DNA of 64,000 nucleotides from Eledone cirrhosa (Eukaryota): the NCBI GenBank assembly GCA_964016885.1, contig OZ024742.1, positions 1,488,001 through 1,552,000 on the forward strand, read 5' to 3'. Numbering within the stretch: position 1 is the first letter of the stretch; every line of letters starts with the position of its first letter. Position numbers and translations under genes: made by a program. The notes under the pieces were generated by a model. That model was not told where the DNA came from. It saw nothing but the letters and a program-made list of their open reading frames with translations, and did not search any database. Positions 36,354 through 63,640 of the stretch are shown here, piece after piece.

Positions 36354-36428
<75 letters not shown>

Positions 36429-36433
<5 letters not shown>

Positions 36434-36636
36434 AACGAGTAGGACCCCGACAGCTGAGCTCAAGCCGTTTCGACGGCTAATTCTGGACTAAATTGATTTA
36501 GTCCAGAATTAGCCGTCGAAACGGCTTGAGCTCAGCCGTCGGGGTCCTACTCGTTCCTATTACCCACTCTACTACCCTAAGTATTGAGTACTTTGGTGCG
36601 TTATGGTCCACCTGGTTCCTTACCACATTTCCTCCG

Positions 36637-36640
<4 letters not shown>
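36429..36640 (+). mobile_element. Hairpin element family A, copy 1: 65-bp inverted arms + ~80-bp tail, containing the 3' half of a hammerhead ribozyme; Penelope-like terminal fragment in (TA)n
   Basis: Arms 36429-36493 / 36496-36560 (1 mismatch); GAAAC-GGC-ttgagctca-GCC-GTC at 36518-36540; flanked by (TA)n on both sides; related copies at ~44714 and 63066. Confidence 0.75.
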
Positions 36641-36695
<55 letters not shown>

Positions 36696-39792: not shown

Positions 39793-42700
39793 CCTTAATT
39801 CCTAACGTATTTTCAAACCTCAATCCCTAATTCTAGCGTATCTTCAAAACAAAAAAACAAAATCCTTTCCTTCTTCCTTCTTCGAAGGCATGGGGCGGTC
39901 AAACGCCTAACACACACAACCATCATGCGGCCCCCCCCCCCCCTCTCTCTCTCTATATATATATATATATGATAGGAATTCACTTCGCCAAATTTCATTG
40001 CTTGCTGTCTACCCCACGATATTCATGTAACGTAATGTACAGATTTTCCTTCATTTCTCTGCCTCCACAAATCCTAATTCTAGCGTATTTTAATCCTAAT
40101 TCTAGCGTATTTTCAAAACAATCCATATTTCGTATCAAGTCCAAATAGCCAACCTATCGCTAAAACAAACTACATTTTTTGTTTTTATTAATTGTTAAAT
40201 ACGAAAGTTTTTGGTCGTATTGAACAGAACAAATTTTGTATTTTTGTTAATCGCTTGTTAAATGCAAGGACCCCATTCAATCATTACCTTCTATCTAGCT
40301 ACCCAACACCCCTCCCTCCCACCCCCACGCACCACCATTGCTATTACGTGGACCAATCATAAAACAGAGCCCCCCACGCATCACCAGTATTATTACGCGG
40401 ACCAATCAGAAGCCAGAGGCCTATACTATCGCTTGCCTGGTTGCCTTTCGATATATGATGGATGGATGGACTGCGGAATCCTGGAGAGTGGAGGAGAGAG
40501 AGAGAAAAATCTGGACGCTCAGCGACAATGCCAAAGATAAAGACAAATTCACCTCTTGGACGAGAATGCGAGCACTCCTCATTGTTTCGACCGCGGACGG
40601 CTAACATAACCCCATCGCCCCCCGCCCCCCACCGCCCCCAACCCCCAAACGCAATCCAAAACTTCAGAGTTGGTACCATAAATGTAGGCACCCTAAAGGG
40701 TCACGCTAACGAGGTTGTAGAAATGCTTGAACGTAAGGAGGTTGATATTTGTTGTATTCAAGAGACCAGGTGGAGGGGTGGGTCTGCTAGGTTCATTGAG
40801 GGTAAAAAACGATGTTATAAGCTTTTCTGGGTGGGAAACGACGATGGGCTGGGTGGAGTAGGAATCATGGTAGCAGAAAAGTGGGCAGATAAGATAATAG
40901 AAGTAAATAGAGTGAACGACAGAATAATTAAAATACGACTTGTCCTCAATAGAACTACGGTGACAGTAATATCTGCGTACGCACCCCAATCCGGACTGCC
41001 CGGCACTATAAAAGACAGATTCTATGAGACACTGATGCTAACTACCTCCCAAATATCCGACAGTGACTATATAATTATCGCAGGCAACCTAAATGGTCAC
41101 GTTGGACAACATTGTGACGGCTACGACGAAATCCATGGAGGCTATGGGTTTGGTACTAGAAATGAGGAAGGCTCCAGAATCCTGGAATTCTGTGATGCAA
41201 ATAACCTAACTATCTGTAACACTAACTTCAAAAAACGTGACAATCACCTGATCACCTATAGATCCGGGTAACACACAAGCCAGGTAGATTATATCCTTAC
41301 CAGAAGACGTGACAGAGTGTCTGTTGTAAACACTAAATCCCTCCCCCATGAAGAATGCACCTCCCAACATAGACTGATAATTAGCGACCTCATAATCAGG
41401 ACGAGACGTACTCGACAGCAGAAGAGGACTATCCTCAGGAGAAAAATATGGAAGCTAAAGGACCCCACAGCCAGGAATAAATTTCAAAGCATATTACTTG
41501 ATGCTTTCGACAGTAAGGAAGAACATTTAGAGTCGGACAATATAGAGGGAGAGTGGGAATTTCTGAAAGCAAACCTGCTGTTGGCGACAGACGAAGTCTG
41601 TGGCTGGAGCAGGCCTGTAGGCAGGAGGAGAGTAACATGGTGGTGGAACAGTAAGGTGGAGGGGTCAATTAAGGCCAAAAAGCAGGCTTGGAAAGTATGG
41701 CGGGATGGGGGAAGTAGAGAAGACTATCAAGTGGCCAGGAGGGAAGCTAGGAGACAAGTGTACTTCGCAAGAAGGGAAGCTGAGGAAAGAAAGTTCAAGC
41801 ATGTTCTACAACGCGATGACCAAAAACGTGAGGTGTTCAGGATTGCTAGGCAATGCGTCAAGGAAAACCGTGATATTGTCGGGGAGAAGTGTGTACTAAA
41901 CGACGATGGCACACTTGCCATCACCGACGCTGATAAGAAGGTAGCTTGGAAGTGTCACTATGAAAGGCTACTAAATGAGGAGAATAAATGGGAGAAAGAC
42001 AGTCTCCCCCATATCGACCCAATAGAGGGACCAGCAGTGTTAGTCGAGGGGAGTATAATAAGTAAGGCAATCAAGGATATGAAGACGGGTAAGGCAGCTG
42101 GGCCTTCGGAAATAGTTGCTGAGATGCTGAAGGCATCTGGCACGGTGGGACACACCATGGTCACCCGCATAGTTAACCAAGTCGTACAGAATGGGGTTGT
42201 TCCGAAGGACTGGCATAGCAGCATCATCGTTAACTGTTATAAGGGTAAAGGAGACGCCCTAGATAGGAGTAACTATAGAGGCATTAAATTAATCGACCAG
42301 GTCATGAAGGTCACGGAAAAAGTAATAGCGCAACTAATCAGAGAGAGAATTGACCTAGATGAAATGCAGTTCGGGTTTGTGTCAGGCAAAAGTACCACAG
42401 ACGCTCTTTTCATAGTACGACAACTACAGGAGAAGTACCTAGCTAAAGGTAAACCCCTCTACTTAGCTTTTGTCGACTTGGAGAAAGCCTTCGACAGAGT
42501 CCCCCGCTCCATTATCTGGTGGGCTCTTAGAAAACTAGGCGTTGACGAATGGCTTGTGAGGGCTATACAAGCCATGTATAAAGAAACAGTCAGAAAGGTT
42601 AGAATTAACAACGAATATAGTGAAGAGTTTAGCGTAAAAGTTGGCGTCCATCAGGGCTCTGTTCTCAGCCCACTACTATTTATTATTGCCCTTCAGGCTA

Positions 42701-44097
42701 TAACAGAGGAGTTCAAGACAGGCTGCCCATGGGAACTCCTATACGCAGACGACCTGACACGCATAGCGGAATCAATGGCCGAGCTAGAGAAGAAATTCCA
42801 AACATGGAAGCACGGCCTAGAGTCAAAAGGACTTAAAATTAACCTGGCTAAGACCAAAGTACTAGTTTGTAGGAAAGAAAACAAGGCGGCGGTCCCTTCT
42901 GGGAAATGGTCGTGCTCGGTGTGTAGGAAAGGCGTAGGTAGAAACTCCATTTTATATCCTAAATGCAAAGTATGGGTGCATAAAAGATGTAGTGGGATCA
43001 CAGGTAAGCTAACTAAGAACATAGATTTTACATGTGGCCGGTGCTCTGGTGCAATAAGTAGCAGCAAGTGCCCACAAAATACTAGCTCTTTCAATTGTGC
43101 AGAGGGTTCTATAGAAATAGTGGACAGCTTCCGTTACCTGGGCGATAAAATCAGCAGTGGGGGAGGGTGCTCTGAAAGTACTGTAGCTAGAGTCAGAACT
43201 GGTTGGAAAAAGTTCAGAGAGCTTATACCACTATTAGCTGCTAAAGGGTTCTCCCTAAAAATGAAAGGCAGGTTGTACGATGCCTGCATACGAACAGCAA
43301 TGCTGCATGGCAGTGAGACCTGGGCATTGTGTGCAGAGGATATACGCAGACTAGAGAGGAACGAAGCTTGCATGCTCCGCTGGATGTGTAACAGTAATAT
43401 ACGTGAACGGCAAAGCATAAACGAACTAAGGAAAAAATTAGAGATAAGAGGGATCAGATGTTGTTTACTCGAGAGAAGGCTACGTTGGTATGGACACGTG
43501 ATGCGCATGAAAGTCGATAGCTGTATAACAAAGTGCAGGGCAATAAAGATAGACGGTAGTCACGGAATAGGCAGACCTAGAAAAACCTGGGACGAGCTGA
43601 TAAACTCCGACATCACACACTTACACCTCTCCAAGACAATGTCACTGGACCGAGACCTTTGGCGCTACTCAGTAACAGAGAAGACCCGCCTTACCTAAAT
43701 ATATAGTAAAACCTACTCCAGCCAGTAGGCATCTCTAACAAAATACACCCCGTCCCACCACCACCACCCCCACCCCATCCACACCACCCCGTTCTATGTA
43801 AAGTTATGTTGGTGCCGCGCCATCGAGGCCGAAACAAATGAGATCGTGTAGGTGTCACAACAAAAAAACACACAGTCCACGCTGTAATGTGGCCGTGTAG
43901 GCAACACGGTAAAAACCTCCCAGACCCACACTGTAAATGTGGTTGGTGTTAGGAAGGGTATCCAACTGTAGAAAACCTGCCAGACAGTCCTATGCGAGCA
44001 AGACAATCACTCTTGCCTCAAGTGGGACTACCCCCGTCCAAACCCATGCAAGCGTGGAACACGGACGTTAAATGTTGATGATGATGATGATGATGAT
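39793..44097 (+). mobile_element. RTE-clade LINE (RTE-PHD family), near full length; 5' boundary uncertain
   Basis: APE endonuclease + RT ORF, 3'UTR ending in (GAT)n at ~44097; possible imperfect target duplication atactctatat / atactttatat. Confidence 0.9.
40462..43698 (+). pseudogene. RTE ORF (APE endonuclease - RT - PHD finger) interrupted by one in-frame TAA at 41269-41271
   Basis: Motifs GTINVGTL, CIQETRW, SAYAPQ, G(N)LNGH, QVDYIL, QHRLI; [32 protein letters not shown]. ORFs 40462 and 41317 are in the same frame; the second copy has GAA where this has TAA. Confidence 0.93.
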
Positions 44098-44713: not shown

Positions 44714-44908
44714 AATAAAGAATCAGGACCCTGGCTGAGGACTTGCCGTTTCAACAGCAAGTCCCAGACTCTGGAACTAGCTGTTGAAATGGCAAGTGCT
44801 CAGCTGTCGGGGTCCCGGCACTTTATAATATAACCATACTCTACTACCCCAAGTATTGAGTACTCTGTTCAGTAAAGGTCTAACTAGTTTGAAACTGAAT
44901 CCATCCCG
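44714..44908 (+). mobile_element. Hairpin element family A, diverged copy 2
   Basis: Imperfect inverted arms around ~44770, GAAATGGC..GCTGTC-GGGGTCC, tail actctactaccccaagtattgagtact shared with copies 1 and 3; in TA/TG tract. Confidence 0.7.
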
Positions 44909-44920
44909 ATATATATATAT

Positions 44921-45164: not shown

Positions 45165-46438
45165 ACTGGGGGTTTTCTACGGCTGGGTGCCCTTCCCAAC
45201 ACCAACCACGTTTACAGTGTGGACTGGGAAGTTTTTACCGTGTTACCTACACGGCCACATTACAGCGTGGACTGTGTCTTTTTTTGTCGTGACACCTACA
45301 CGACCTCATTTGTTTCAGACTGGATGTTGTAGTACCGACATAACTTCACATTTAAGAGGGGGGGGGGTTATTTTTGTTAGAGGTGCCTACTGACTAGGTT
45401 TTGTTTTGTACTTAGGCAAGGCGGGTCTTCTGTATTACTGTGTAGCGCCAAAGATCTTGGTCCAGTGACATTGTCTTGGAGAGGTGTAAGTGTGTGAGGT
45501 CGGAATTTATCAAGTCGTCTCAGGTTTTTCTGGGTCTGCCTACTCCGTGGCTACCGTCTATTTTTATTGCCCTGCACTTTTTTATACAGCTGTCGTCTTT
45601 CATGCGCATCACGTAACCATACCAACGTAGTCTTCTCTCGAGTAAACAACATCTGATCCCTCTTATTTCTAATTTTTCCCTTAGTTCGTTTATGCTTTGC
45701 CGTTCACGTATATTACTATTACACATCCAGTGGAGCATGCAAGCTTCATTCCTCTCCAGTCTGCGTATATCCTCTGCACACAATGCCCAGGTCTCACTGC
45801 CATGTAACATTGCTGTTCGGATGCAGGCATCATACAGCCTGCCTTACATTTTTAGAGAGAACCCTTTAGCGGCTAATAGTGGTATAAGCTCTCTGAACTT
45901 TTTCCATCCAGTTCTGACTCTAGCTACTGTACTTTCAGAGCACCCTCCACCACTGCTGATTTTGTCAGCCAAGTAACGGAAGGTGTCCACTGTTTCTATA
46001 GAACCATCTGTGCAATGGAATGAGCTAGTATTCTGTGGGCACTTGCTGCTACTTATTGCACCAGAGCACCGGCCACATATAAAATCTATGTTCTTAGTTA
46101 GCTTACCTGTGATCCCACTACATCTTTTATGCACCCATACTTTGCATTTGGGACATAAAATGGAGTTTCTACCTACTCCTTTCCTACACACTGAGCATGG
46201 CCATTTCCCGGATGGGACCGATGCCCTATTTTCCTTCCTACAAACTAGAACTTTAGTCTTAGACAGGTTAATTTTAAGGCCTTTTGATTCTAGGCCATGC
46301 TTCCATGTTTGGAATTTCTTCTCTAGTTCGGCCATTGATTCAGCTATGAGCGTTAGATCATCTGCATATAGGAGTTCCCATGGGCAGCCAGTCTTGAACT
46401 CCACTGTTATAGCCTGAAGGGCAATAATAAATAGTAGT
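45165..46438 (-). mobile_element. Diverged RTE-PHD fragment (RT C-half, PHD, part of 3'UTR), truncated at both ends
   Basis: ORFs 45844..46506(-) and 45520..45810(-) align to the RTE ORF (YADD, CSVC..CPKC..H..C..CGRC) with premature stops; no (GAT)n tail. Confidence 0.92.
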
Positions 46439-58694: not shown

Positions 58695-61160
58695 AAACGT
58701 GACAATCACCTGATCACCTATAGATCCGGGGAACACACAAGCCAGGTAGATTATATCCTTACCAGAAGACGTGACAGAGTGTCTGTTGTTAACACTAAAT
58801 CCCTCCCCCATGAAGAATGCACCTCCCAACATAGACTGATAATTAGCGACCTCATAGTCAGGACGAGACGTACTCGACAACAGAAGAGGACTATCCTCAG
58901 GAGGAAAATATGGAAGCTAAAGGACCCCACAGCCAGGAATAAATTTCAAAGCATATTACTTGATGCTTTCGACAGTAAGGAAGAACATTTAGAGTCGGAC
59001 AATATAGAGGGAGAGTGGGAATTTCTGAAAGCAAACCTGCTGTTGGCGACAGACGAGGTCTGTGGCTGGAGCAGGCCTGTAGGCAGGAGGAGAGTAACAT
59101 GGTGGTGGAACAGTAAGGTGGAGGGGTCAATTAAGGCCAAAAAGCAGGCTTGGAAAGTATGGCGGGATGGGGGAAGTAGAGAGGACTATCAAGTGGCCAG
59201 GAGGGAAGCTAGGAGACAAGTGTACTTAGCAAGAAGGGAAGCTGAGGAAAGAAAGTTCAAGCATGTTCTACAACGCGATGACCAAAAACGTGAGGTGTTC
59301 AGGATTGCTAGGCAATGCGTCAAGGAAAACCGTGATATTGTCGGGGAGAAGTGTGTACTAAACGACGATGGCACACTTGCCATCACCGACGCTGATAAGA
59401 AGGTAGCTTGGAAGTGTCACTATGAAAGGCTTCTAAATGAGGAGAATAATTGGGAGAAAGGCAGTCTCCCCCATATCGACCCAATAGAGGGACCAGCAGT
59501 GTTAGTCGAGGGGAGTATAATAAGTAAGGCAATCAAGGATATGAAGACTGGTAAGGCGGCTGGGCCTTCGGAAATAGTTGCTGAGATGCTGAAGGCATCT
59601 GGCACGGTGGGACACACCATGGTCACCCGCATAGTTAACCAAGTCGTACAAAACGGGGTTGTTCCGAAGGACTGGCATAGCAGCATCATCGTTAACTGTT
59701 ATAAGGGTAAAGGAGACGCCCTAGATAGGAGTAACTATAGAGGCATTAAATTAATCGACCAGGTCATGAAGGTCACGGAAAGAGTAATAGCGCAACTAAT
59801 CAGAGAGAGAATTGACCTAGATGAAATGCAGTTCGGGTTTGTGTCAGGCAAAAGTACCACAGACGCTCTTTTCATAGTACGACAACTACAAGAGAAGTAC
59901 CTAGCTAAAGGTAAACCCCTCTACTTAGCTTTTGTCGACTTGGAGAAAGCCTTCGACAGAGTCCCCCGCTCCATTATCTGGTGGGCTCTTAGAAAACTAG
60001 GCGTTGACGAATGGCTTGTGAGGGCTATACAAGCCATGTATAAAGAAACAGTCAGCAAGGTTAGAATTAACAACGAATATAGTGAAGAGTTTAGCGTAAA
60101 AGTCGGCGTCCATCAGGGCTCTGTTCTCAGTCCACTACTATTTATTATTGCCCTTCAGGCCATAACAGAGGAGTTCAAGACAGGCTGCCCATGGGAACTC
60201 CTATACGCAGACGACCTGACACTCATAGCGGAATCAATGGCCGAGCTAGAGAAGAAATTCCAAACATGGAAGCACGGCCTAGAGTCAAAAGGACTTAAAA
60301 TTAACCTGGCTAAGACCAAAGTACTAGTTTGTAGGAAAGAAAACAAGGCGGCGGTCCCTTCTGGGAAATGGTCGTGCTCGGTGTGTAGGAAAGGCGTAGG
60401 TAGAAACTCCATTTTATGTCCTAAATGCAAAGTATGGGTGCATAAAAGATGTAGTGGGATCACAGGTAGGCTAACTAAGAACATAGATTTTACATGTGGC
60501 CGGTGCTCTGGTGCAATAAGTAGCAGCAAGTGCCCACAAACTACTAGCTCTTTCAATTGCGCAGAGGGTTCTATAGAAATAGTGGACAGCTTCCGTTACC
60601 TGGGCGATAAAATCAGCAGTGGGGGAGGGTGCTCTGAAAGTACTGTAGCTAGAGTCAGAACTGGTTGGAAAAAGTTCAGAGAGCTTATACCACTATTAGC
60701 TGCTAAAGGGTTCTCACTAAAAATGAAAGGCAGGTTGTACGATGCCTGCATACGAACAGCAATGCTGCATGGCAGTGAGACCTGGGCATTGTGTGCAGAG
60801 GATATACGCAGACTAGAGAGGAACGAAGCTTGCATGCTCCGCTGGATGTGTAACAGTAATATACGTGAACGGCAAAGCATAAACGAACTAAGGAATAAAT
60901 TAGAGATAAGAGGGATCAGATGTTGTTTACTCGAGAGAAGGCTACGTTGGTATGGACACGTGATGCGCATGAAAGTCGATAGCTGTATAACAAAGTGCAG
61001 GGCAATAAAGATAGACGGTAGTCACGGAATAGGCAGACCTAGAAAAACCTGGGACGAGCTGATAAACTCCGACATCACACACTTACACCTCTCCAAGACA
61101 ATGTCACTGGACCGAGACCTTTGGCGGTACTCAGTAACAGAGAAGACCCGCCTTACCTAA
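58695..61160 (+). CDS. Uninterrupted but 5'-truncated RTE ORF (end of APE, RT, PHD finger)
   Basis: Open frame [14 protein letters not shown]...EKTRLT*; YADD at 60204; PHD 60375-60506; the ORF-track start in the microsatellite is artefactual. Confidence 0.88.
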
Positions 61161-61552
61161 ATATATAGTAAAACCTACTCCAGCCAGTAGGCATCTCTAA
61201 CAAATACACCCCGTCCCACCACCCCCACCCGATCCACACCACCCCGTTCTATGTAAAGTTATGTTGGTGCCGCGCCATCGAGGCCGAAACAAATGAGATC
61301 GTGTAGGTGTCACGACAAAAAAACACACAGTCCACGCTGTAATGTGGCCGTGTAGGCAACACGGTAAAAACCTCCCAGACCCACACTGTAAATGTGGTTG
61401 GTGTTAGGAAGGGCATCCAACTGTAGAAAACCTGCCAGACAGTCCTATGCGAGCAAGACAATCACTCTTGCCTCAAGTGGGACTACCCCCGTCCAAACCC
61501 ATGCAAGCGTGGAACACGGACGTTAAACGTTGATGATGATGATGATGATGAT
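58695..61552 (+). mobile_element. RTE-PHD LINE copy 2, 5'-truncated inside the APE domain, inserted in (TA)n
   Basis: Near-identical to 41233-44097; (GAT)n tail. Confidence 0.95.
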
Positions 61553-62614: not shown

Positions 62615-62954
62615 ATCATCATCATCATCATCATCATTTTACGTCCGCTTTTCCCTGCTTGCAAGGGTGGGACGGGAACTGATTCTGGCTTGATTTCTAC
62701 AGCTGGATGCCCTTCCTAACACCAACCTCATTTACAGTGAGTGCTGGGTGCTTTTTTGTCGTGGCACCTCCACGACCACTTTGCAGTGGAATGATAGTGA
62801 CCCCAGTCCCTATCATCTCATTTCTACAGCTGAGTAAACTGGAGCAATGTGAAATAAAGTGTCTTGCTCAAGGAAACAACACATCACCCAGTCTGAGAAT
62901 TGAACTCACAACCTTTCGATTGCAAGGCCAATGCTCTAACCACTAAGCCATATG
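62615..62954 (-). mobile_element. CORE-type SINE family C
   Basis: Reverse complement of 39445-39781. Confidence 0.9.
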
Positions 62955-63065: not shown

Positions 63066-63261
63066 ATAGGAACCAGTAAGACCCCGACGGCTGAGCTCAA
63101 GCCGTTTCGACGGCTAATTCTGGACATGAATTAACCGTCGAAACGGCTTGAGCTCAGCCGTCGGGGTCTTACTGGTTCCTATTACCCACTCTACTACCCC
63201 AAGTATTGAGTACTTTGGTGCGTTATGGTCCACCTGGTTCCTTACCACATTTCCTTCGTTA
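63066..63261 (+). mobile_element. Hairpin element family A, copy 3 (55-bp arms + tail)
   Basis: Arms 63066-63120 / 63128-63182; tail nearly identical to copy 1; in (TA)n. Confidence 0.75.
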
Positions 63262-63292: not shown

Positions 63293-63640
63293 ATCATCAT
63301 CATCATCATCATTTCATTTTACGTCCGCTTTTTCCCTGCTTGCAAGGGTGGGACGGGAACTGATTTTGGCTTGATTTCTACAGCTGGATGCCCTTCCTAA
63401 CACCAACCTCATTTACAGTGAGTGCTGGGTGCTTTTTTGCCGTGGCACCTGCACGACCACTTTGCAGTGGAATGATATGGACCCCAGTCCCTATCATCTC
63501 ATTTCTACAGCTGAGTAAACTGGAGCAATGTGAAATAAAGTGTCTTGCTCAAGGAAACAACACATCGCCCGGTCTGAGAATTGAACTCACAACCTTTCGA
63601 TTGCAAGGCCAATGCTCTAACCACTAAGCCATGTGCCTCC
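63293..63640 (-). mobile_element. CORE-type SINE family C
   Basis: Reverse complement of 39445-39781. Confidence 0.9.

What the first reader, a model, noticed from the sequence alone, without database searches (positions are those of the whole stretch)
36429..36640. Hairpin family A: arms co-vary within each copy and the fold-back apex sits on the predicted hammerhead helix II loop
Seen: copy 1 has ggaacGagtaGgacc / ggtcCtactCgttcc while copy 3 (63066) has ggaacCagtaAgacc / ggtcTtactGgttcc; copy 2 (44714) has cttgccgtttcaacagc / gctgttgaaatggcaag. Both arms change together. The right arm reads helix II 3' strand-GAAAC-stem III (ACGGC/GCCGU)-GUC-GGGGUCC, but the 5' CUGANGA half is replaced by the mirror image. 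Inference: reverse transcriptase copies the long helix II, the cDNA snaps back on that hairpin and self-primes, so the left arm is made anew at each insertion. The ribozyme structure would then dictate the truncation/inversion point. Gene conversion between arms is the alternative.
Basis: partly seen in the sequence, partly recalled or inferred. Interest (0 to 1): 0.75.

Follow-up and report, generated by a model that had tools for sequence, protein, structure and literature searches.

The report
Penelope hairpins mark RNA start site
This hairpin is one of tens of thousands of tiny back-to-back stubs of a Penelope-type jumping gene, and their tips pile up at one spot carrying an extra G, which likely means the copying enzyme started from both sides of the cut DNA and ran off the start of the element's RNA rather than folding back on its ribozyme.

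Summary
The hairpin and the arm covariation are real. The family is the pLTR-plus-tail end of a Hydra-clade Penelope-like retroelement (at least 31,761 tail copies; intact RT/GIY-YIG ORFs in 3.5-kb tandem arrays). Uncut copies carry a type I hammerhead with U3-A8 or C3/A8 core, not CUGANGA; its true helix II is short and is not the long arm. Arms are made at insertion (91 distinct junctions in 107 hairpins; 219 one-arm against 23 both-arm variants), but snap-back on helix II fails: the tail-less arm is the longer one in 31 of 67, microhomology is at most 1 nt in 64 of 67, and exactly one arm has the tail in 56 of 58. Arm tips end at an initiator-like A, 29-31 nt past a TATA-like box, often behind an untemplated G (5,781 G against 959 A). 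Best reading: two cDNAs, primed from both strands of a (TA)n cut, run off the RNA's probably capped 5' end and are end-joined. No RNA data were available. The layout is published, with self-priming proposed for it; I did not find the run-off reading in print. This scan noted dual priming and an extra G before on other DNA.

The parts
36357..36431 (.). (TA)n target, left side
36432..36494 (-). Inverted, tail-less arm: copy of the element from its inner 3' end point (+58) back to about -5, counting the initiator-like A as +1
   Evidence: the same outer end is the commonest end of tail-less arms
36495..36495 (+). Junction G not present at this place in most uncut copies; candidate reverse-transcribed cap at the minor start (-4)
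   Evidence: 26 of 30 loci with this G are short copies ending there; 9 of the 26 can be read as the partner's mirror
36496..36559 (+). Tail-bearing arm, -4 to +60; main inferred transcription start is the A at 36500
36510..36545 (+). 3' half of a type I hammerhead: helix II 3' strand 36510-36517, GAAA 36518-36521, stem III 36521-36525/36535-36539 with a palindromic loop, cleavage site after 36540, stem I 3' strand 36541-36545; the 5' half is absent from this copy
36560..36639 (+). One-sided PLE tail; in tandem copies it runs on into the leader and ORF
36566..36589 (+). First of two bulged hairpins; its twin lies just past the tail end in tandem copies and is absent from short insertions
   Evidence: each weak alone: z about -1.7 in L261, -0.4 in this copy
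36638..36692 (.). (TA)n target, right side
44716..44910 (+). Copy 2: same layout, older diverged family (family B)
63069..63261 (+). Copy 3: same family, other subfamily; arms end at +2 and +7 with a 2-nt insert

Best explanation
The hairpin is a 5'-truncated head-to-head insertion of a Hydra-clade Penelope-like retroelement, likely made when two reverse-transcription events, primed from the two cut strands of a (TA)n target, ran off the 5' end of the element's RNA and were then end-joined. Shown: the element's anatomy (3.5-kb unit: pLTR with hammerhead, tail, RT/GIY-YIG ORF, UTR), the sharp 5' limit of short copies, the extra G, one tail per hairpin, varied blunt junctions, both arms from one source copy. 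Inferred: the RNA starts at the initiator-like A inside hammerhead loop II and is capped; the enzyme primes internally at the tail end (+140) on one strand and at the inner site (+58) on the other, both close to the RNA's 5' end, so most events give only 60- and 140-nt strong-stop cDNAs, probably from one RNA molecule. Such stubs lack the upstream promoter half and the ribozyme's 5' half and would be dead ends. Long copies would need the same start signals at the far end of a read-through RNA, or a template jump.
For: Cliff: of the first 100 tail-anchored copies in contig C1, 57 begin at -10..+15 by an ungapped walk (about 11 more on inspection, where indels stopped the walk), 1 begins further upstream, 8 are long, the rest begin further 3'. 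Extra G: 5,781 genome matches with G before +1 against 959 with A; 0 of 60 long arms have G there. Of 64 such arms in 60 fetched loci, 46 cannot be read as the partner's mirror, some abut host DNA or (TA)n, three hairpins have it on both arms, and the bases upstream of the G are not conserved. For L1, an extra G with little microhomology marks capped full-length ends (PMC11702581, passage). A TATA-like octamer lies at -28 to -32 in most of 81 long copies, TATTTAAA in 41; Penelope's start site lies in its pLTR (PMC2377424, PMC8557442 passages). Two primings: exactly one tail in 56 of 58 arm-anchored hairpins and in 16 of 18 long pairs; two internal RT start sites that bound the tail, both strands extended, and a predicted dimer are published for PAc (PMC11167929). 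End-joining: equal arm ends in 10 of 67 against 7.4 expected from independent trimming; inserts in 26 of 67. One source: the partner is first or second nearest among 65 long arms in all 11 pairs with full overlap. Sense mRNA as template: 3 of 30 leader-bearing loci read [inverted arm][+1 or +2 into the ORF][+1 or +2 to tail end](TA)n, so the same 5' end appears twice in one insertion. Family B stops at its own initiator-like A although its loop II differs in length.
Against: No RNA data: the start site and the cap are inferred from DNA. An RT may add C at any template end, capped or not. Family B has no TATA-like box in 3 of 3 long copies, and its G excess is weaker: 155 G against 172 A+T (24 A and 76 T in the first 100 listed), and 10 of 30 G loci are mirror-explainable by eye. 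The genome-wide T base before +1 in family A was not counted, and one long copy (L232) has G at -1. The T control for the minor start was invalid because T is templated in a subfamily (804 matches, 8 of 15 long). Other subfamilies have weaker TATA-like octamers. The junction sample excludes arms ending 3' of +15 by construction; 23 of the 100 copies scored as inverted start further 3'. One junction type (tail-less +1, tail arm +7) recurs in 6 of 67 and is unexplained.
Confidence: 0.68

Rival explanations
1. One reading: the cDNA copies helix II, snaps back on that hairpin and self-primes, so the ribozyme fold sets the apex.
For: The apex is inside loop II, a few bases from the tip of a predicted helix II extension. 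Self-priming is the published guess for inverted PLE junctions (PMC3846280 Discussion).
Against: Junctions lack most of loop II; tail-less arm longer in 31 of 67; 0-1 nt microhomology in 64 of 67; same stop without inversion; untemplated G on either or both arms; no reason for the second arm to stop at +58.
Confidence: 0.05
2. One priming only: the cDNA runs off the RNA's 5' end, folds back or is sealed into a hairpin, copies itself, the endonuclease trims the second arm at the tail boundary, and the tip is later opened and rejoined.
For: Explains one tail per hairpin and one source for both arms; the tail has been ascribed to endonuclease resolution (PMC8557442 passage); some junctions are perfect palindromes.
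Against: Needs extra processing to make the tail-less arm longer (31 of 67) or to put the G on the tail-less arm or both arms; perfect palindromes are about as common as independent trimming predicts (10 against 7.4); PAc initiates at both tail boundaries in vitro.
Confidence: 0.12
3. Two primings, but the stop is an uncapped end or RT barrier in loop II (nuclease cut or ribozyme-related fold), with the G from terminal transferase activity.
For: The stop lies in loop II in both families; family B lacks a TATA-like box; no cap data.
Against: The stop sits on an initiator-like A in both families, 29-31 nt from a TATA-like box in family A, with a second G-marked stop at a second initiator-like A. 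Ends at the hammerhead cleavage site are rare (about 4 of 100 at +41..+43).
Confidence: 0.12
4. Hairpins multiply as units from hairpin masters, or gene conversion makes the arms alike.
For: A few junction strings recur (up to 4 times); one hairpin (L107) has a 3-nt patch that disagrees with its own tail and partner.
Against: 91 distinct junctions in 107; 219 one-arm against 23 both-arm variants at 42 other columns, most of the 23 belonging to rare subfamilies; arm-to-arm divergence 4.9% against about 3% of each arm from the majority; each hairpin haplotype has long relatives.
Confidence: 0.03

Closest known systems
Hydra clade of C-terminal-endonuclease Penelope-like elements (Craig et al. 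2021, PMC8557442)
   Same: Single RT + GIY-YIG ORF with RW[K/R], DKT, CxCx5C linker, CxxC and CxH motifs; (TA)n target; hammerhead in the pLTR; inverted truncated copy plus one-sided tail.
   Different: Unit is 3.5 kb (most are under 3 kb); tail about 80 nt rather than 30-40; variant core; about two thirds of insertions are stubs ending at one point.
Inverted-pLTR insertions of Adineta vaga Penelope elements (Arkhipova et al. 2013, PMC3846280)
   Same: Head-to-head inverted pLTR, tail on one side, TATA plus initiator-like motif noted in a pLTR.
   Different: That paper reads the inverted junctions as self-priming, probably on an antisense template; here the junctions point to a sense template and two primings.
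Poseidon element PAc in vitro (Frangieh et al. 2024, PMC11167929)
   Same: Two internal RT start sites bound the tail; both strands cut and extended; dimer predicted; ribozyme cleavage not needed.
   Different: It does not treat inverted junctions, a 5' stop point or a cap G in the two parts I read.
PLE hammerheads including the U3-A8 variant (Cervera and De la Pena 2014, PMC4209133)
   Same: Type I motif in the pLTR, G10.1-C11.1, long or bulged helix II, palindromic loop 3, U3-A8 covariation, opposite-strand pairs.
   Different: Loop II here is about 40 nt and holds the inferred promoter and start; 20 of 65 long arms have C3/A8, which should impair cleavage.
L1 twin priming and capped full-length ends (PMC11702581); retroviral minus-strand strong stop (recalled)
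   Same: Second strand primes its own cDNA; extra G and blunt joining at RNA 5' ends; short run-off cDNA that can jump template.
   Different: In L1 the two cDNAs cover different parts of the RNA; here both cover the same 60 nt and start at fixed internal sites.

Membership tests
EN+ Penelope-like element | Single ORF with RT and C-terminal GIY-YIG domain | tested here: met
   784 open codons (about 715 aa from the first ATG) in tandem units, RT motifs with YRDD and a C-terminal IY..Y-IG motif read by eye; 2,215 unnamed homologues, best about 40-54% identical. Pfam and PDB gave no hit.
EN+ Penelope-like element | pLTRs from tandem or partial tandem arrangement | tested here: met
EN+ Penelope-like element | Inverted 5'-truncated copy and one-sided tail | tested here: met
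Hydra clade | RWK-type motif, DKT, CxCx5C linker, CxxC and CxH around E and N | tested here: met
   RWR, DKT, CNC-x5-C, CNLC and CKH in the ORF against the list
Hydra clade | (TA)n insertion | tested here: met
Hydra clade | Placement in the clade on an RT tree | not tested
   no reference sequences fetched
Neptune clade | CX2-5CxxC linker | tested here: not met
   linker is CxCx5C; my first assignment, dropped
Type I hammerhead ribozyme | Three-helix junction with GAAA and NUH site | tested here: met
   minimum-energy fold of L153 and of the L261 unit gives the junction; L151 and L159 fold otherwise; energies no better than shuffles
Type I hammerhead ribozyme | CUGANGA core (C3-G8 or compensated pair) | tested here: inconclusive
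   U3-A8 in 40 of 65, uncompensated C3/A8 in 20; CUGAUGA in 2 of 3 long family B copies; no Rfam hammerhead hit
Type I hammerhead ribozyme | Self-cleavage | not testable with these tools
   needs an in vitro assay
Non-LTR retrozyme | Short non-coding tandem units each with a whole hammerhead | tested here: not met
   hairpins are solitary and lack the 5' half; tandem units are coding
MITE or foldback DNA transposon | Fixed internal sequence copied as a unit | tested here: not met
   91 distinct junctions in 107

The most novel reading that the evidence does not exclude
Penelope-like elements transpose by a two-primer reaction on one capped sense RNA: a dimeric RT/endonuclease primes both target strands at two internal sites near the RNA's 5' end, makes paired strong-stop cDNAs, and either joins them head to head (tens of thousands of cap-marked hairpins) or jumps template to make long and tandem copies. 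The inverted pLTR, the tail and the tandems would then be outcomes of one reaction, and genomic hairpins would map PLE start sites to the base.
Probability: 0.5. Interest if true: 0.75.

Novelty: new variant of a known kind. Interest (0 to 1): 0.55.

Why it matters
How Penelope-like elements, the sister group of telomerase RTs, make their inverted and tandem ends is named as open in PMC8557442 and PMC2377424, and PMC3846280 leaves open self-priming on an antisense template against a sense template. This family gives a large genomic footprint favouring a sense, probably capped template, two primings and end-joining, and a young intact element on which to test it. It also places the promoter inside the hammerhead, so that the mRNA's 5' end could not carry a whole ribozyme.

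Tried and rejected
DNA search of the genome with copy 1 returned nothing because its words are too common. Rfam gave only hairpin and microsatellite noise, no hammerhead. Pfam and PDB had no hit for the ORF; the Atlas search did not run. No RNA holder listed; two unlabelled contig runs hold the family, with a dip at the apex, but may be the source sample. Two-RNA chimera idea: L107 looked chimeric, but its tail matches its left arm's subfamily, so it is a 3-nt patch; four or five single-site mismatches between related haplotypes are ambiguous. A genome-wide count of hairpins with arms from different subfamilies was not obtained, so a low rate of two-RNA events stays open. L158 looked full-length but its downstream ORF is another element. 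Splice-acceptor reading of the AG at +1/+2: bases upstream of the G are not conserved, so no upstream exon. Assembly artefact: arms carry private mutations and one tail. Neptune assignment dropped. Seven of 18 long pairs could not be ranked because one arm was shorter than the stretch aligned.

Full report
Observation. Copy 1 is a 126-nt hairpin with one internal mismatch, an 80-nt unpaired tail and (TA)n on both sides; copies 2 and 3 have the same layout and the quoted arm variants. The genome (3.0 Gb) holds 21,315 exact matches to a 32-mer of the arm and 31,761 to a 28-mer of the tail, controls 0, but only 2,690 to the hammerhead's 5' half. Positions below count the A at window 36500 as +1.

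What it is. Uncut copies continue upstream through about 1.2 kb of UTR into an ORF. Tandem arrays of a 3.53-kb unit read pLTR, tail, leader, ORF, UTR, pLTR, with 784 open codons in young arrays. [quoted passage not shown] I first took it for Neptune; notes of this scan pointed to Hydra and the motif check agreed. Pfam and PDB gave nothing; 2,215 unnamed homologues exist.

The ribozyme. In uncut copies the pLTR can fold as a type I hammerhead with a 6-9 bp bulged helix II and a loop II of about 40 nt; two of four family A copies tried give this as the minimum-energy fold and none beats shuffles. The core is U3/A8 in 40, C3/A8 in 20, U3/G8 in 2 and other in 3 of 65 long arms; none of the first 100 listed has C3 with G8. 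U3-A8 is a published PLE variant. Two of three long copies of copy 2's family have CUGAUGA. Rfam does not score any of them.

Are the arms made at insertion? In 107 hairpins from all loci held at that point, arms agree at 7 diagnostic columns in 75 (shuffles: mean 13, max 25); junction strings are distinct in 91; other columns show 219 one-arm and 23 both-arm variants, the latter mostly rare subfamilies. So the arms start identical and then drift apart; neither unit copying nor conversion fits. Among 18 head-to-head pairs of long arms, the partner is first or second nearest of 65 arms in the 11 pairs with full overlap; 7 could not be ranked. One apparent chimera (L107) proved to be a 3-nt patch.

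Where the arms stop. Of the first 100 tail-anchored copies in contig C1: 57 begin at -10..+15 (48 with an inverted arm, 9 without), 34 score further 3' (about 11 of them are indel or divergence artefacts of the ungapped walk, by inspection), 1 begins at -19 and 8 are long. In 67 hairpins not selected for a G, 133 of 134 arm ends lie at -6..+15, with the caveat that the detector requires the anchor at +16. The base before +1 is T or C in 58 of 60 long arms, 2 out of register, none G (one later long copy has G), yet G precedes +1 in 5,781 genome matches against 959 for A. In 60 loci fetched from the first 100 listed G matches, 46 of 64 such arms cannot be read as the partner's mirror; some abut host DNA; three hairpins have G on both arms with a 1-2 nt spacer; upstream bases are not conserved. 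+1 is the A of an initiator-like motif (consensus recalled), and a TATA-like octamer overlapping the helix II 5' strand lies at -28 to -32 (TATTTAAA in 41 of 81 long copies, weaker variants in most others). A minor G-marked stop at -4, used by copy 1, has 254 matches; 26 of 30 fetched are short copies ending there, 9 of them mirror-explainable; its T control was invalid. Copy 2's family stops at its own initiator-like A, without a TATA-like box and with a weaker G signal (155 G against 172 A+T). For L1 an extra G with little microhomology is read as the mRNA cap, and Penelope's start site is in its pLTR.

How the arms are joined. The tail arm is longer in 26, the tail-less arm in 31, equal in 10 of 67 (7.4 expected from independent trimming); microhomology is 0-1 nt in 64; 26 have inserts, some templated repeats. 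Exactly one arm has the tail in 56 of 58 arm-anchored hairpins. Tail-less arms end at +58 to +60, the same end as uninverted tail-less copies. Snap-back of a tail-primed cDNA predicts the reverse on each count. The PAc element initiates at two internal sites that bound the tail and extends both strands. Two bulged hairpins follow the two end points in this element, each weak alone; the second lies in the leader, so tail-bearing stubs would have to come from RNA that runs on into the ORF. In line with that, 3 of 30 leader-bearing loci read [inverted arm][+1 or +2 to ORF position 291, 339 or 971][+1 or +2 to tail end](TA)n, best read as a run-off cDNA that jumped onto the mRNA and ran off again; a fourth is a whole monomer with a short inverted arm.

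Mechanism. Shown: anatomy, cliff, extra G, one tail per hairpin, blunt varied junctions, common source of the arms. Inferred: capped start at +1 inside loop II; priming of both target strands at +140 and +58 near the RNA's 5' end, probably on one RNA; run-off; end-joining. Ends at the cleavage site are rare (about 4 of 100).

What is known. The inverted pLTR with tail is published, with self-priming on an antisense template as the proposed cause. Searches for a cap, strong-stop or twin-priming reading in PLEs found no such paper; the library lacks most subscription papers, and supplements were searched only for PMC8557442. Seen: PMC3846280 passages and whole Discussion; PMC11167929 parts 1-2 of 4; PMC4209133 parts 1-2 of 4; PMC8557442 passages, section 11 and supplement rows; PMC2377424, PMC11702581 and PMC10018344 passages (the last not relevant); bioRxiv 10.64898/2026.07.22.740005 part 1 of 5. 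This scan's own notes already record head-to-head PLE stubs, dual priming, twin start hairpins and, in another genome, an extra G; they are not independent support.

Verdict. Interest 0.55: the layout is ordinary, but the footprint bears on an open question and is testable on an intact young element.

Noticed in passing
L261-L264 (G000:C1:437.20-437.21 Mb and 91.47-91.49 Mb): Four-unit tandem arrays whose units alternate: in one array units 1 and 3 are identical, 2 and 4 identical, differing by one base; in the other lengths alternate 3542/3543 and units 1 and 3 differ by 2 against 5-7 for neighbours. Could reflect a dimeric or circular template, later duplication, or assembly.
   Followed up: partly
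L243 and L234 (G000:C2:105.17 Mb; C7:23.26 Mb): Copies ending at about +277 to +291 inside the ORF start; in L243 the downstream piece begins one base before the hammerhead cleavage site's 3' side. May be a third start site or RNA 3' end.
   Followed up: partly
hairpin junctions, e.g. L026, L101, L103, L119, L123, L161: One junction (tail-less arm to +1, tail arm from +7, no insert) recurs in 6 of 67, always in the same orientation; unexplained.
   Followed up: no
L065/L066, L113, L151:2226: Further diverged subfamilies of the same element, one with a U3.G8 core; 20 of 65 long arms have an uncompensated C3/A8 core, so a whole subfamily may have spread with a crippled ribozyme.
   Followed up: partly
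window 1-about 32000: A 42-bp tandem array of about 670 copies, strongly strand-skewed, with frameshifting indels and no long continuous ORF.
   Followed up: partly
window 42672-43718, 45392-46438, 60134-61180: Three 1,047-nt copies, 92% alike, in both orientations, overlapping long open frames; probably another retroelement.
   Followed up: no
window 62700-62950 and 63300-63640: Two copies of a repeat with a weak tRNA-like match (Rfam 28 bits, below cut-off) flanking copy 3; probably a SINE.
   Followed up: no
L122, L125, L127, L128: Arms with internal deletions between short direct repeats in the stem, as expected of hairpin instability.
   Followed up: no
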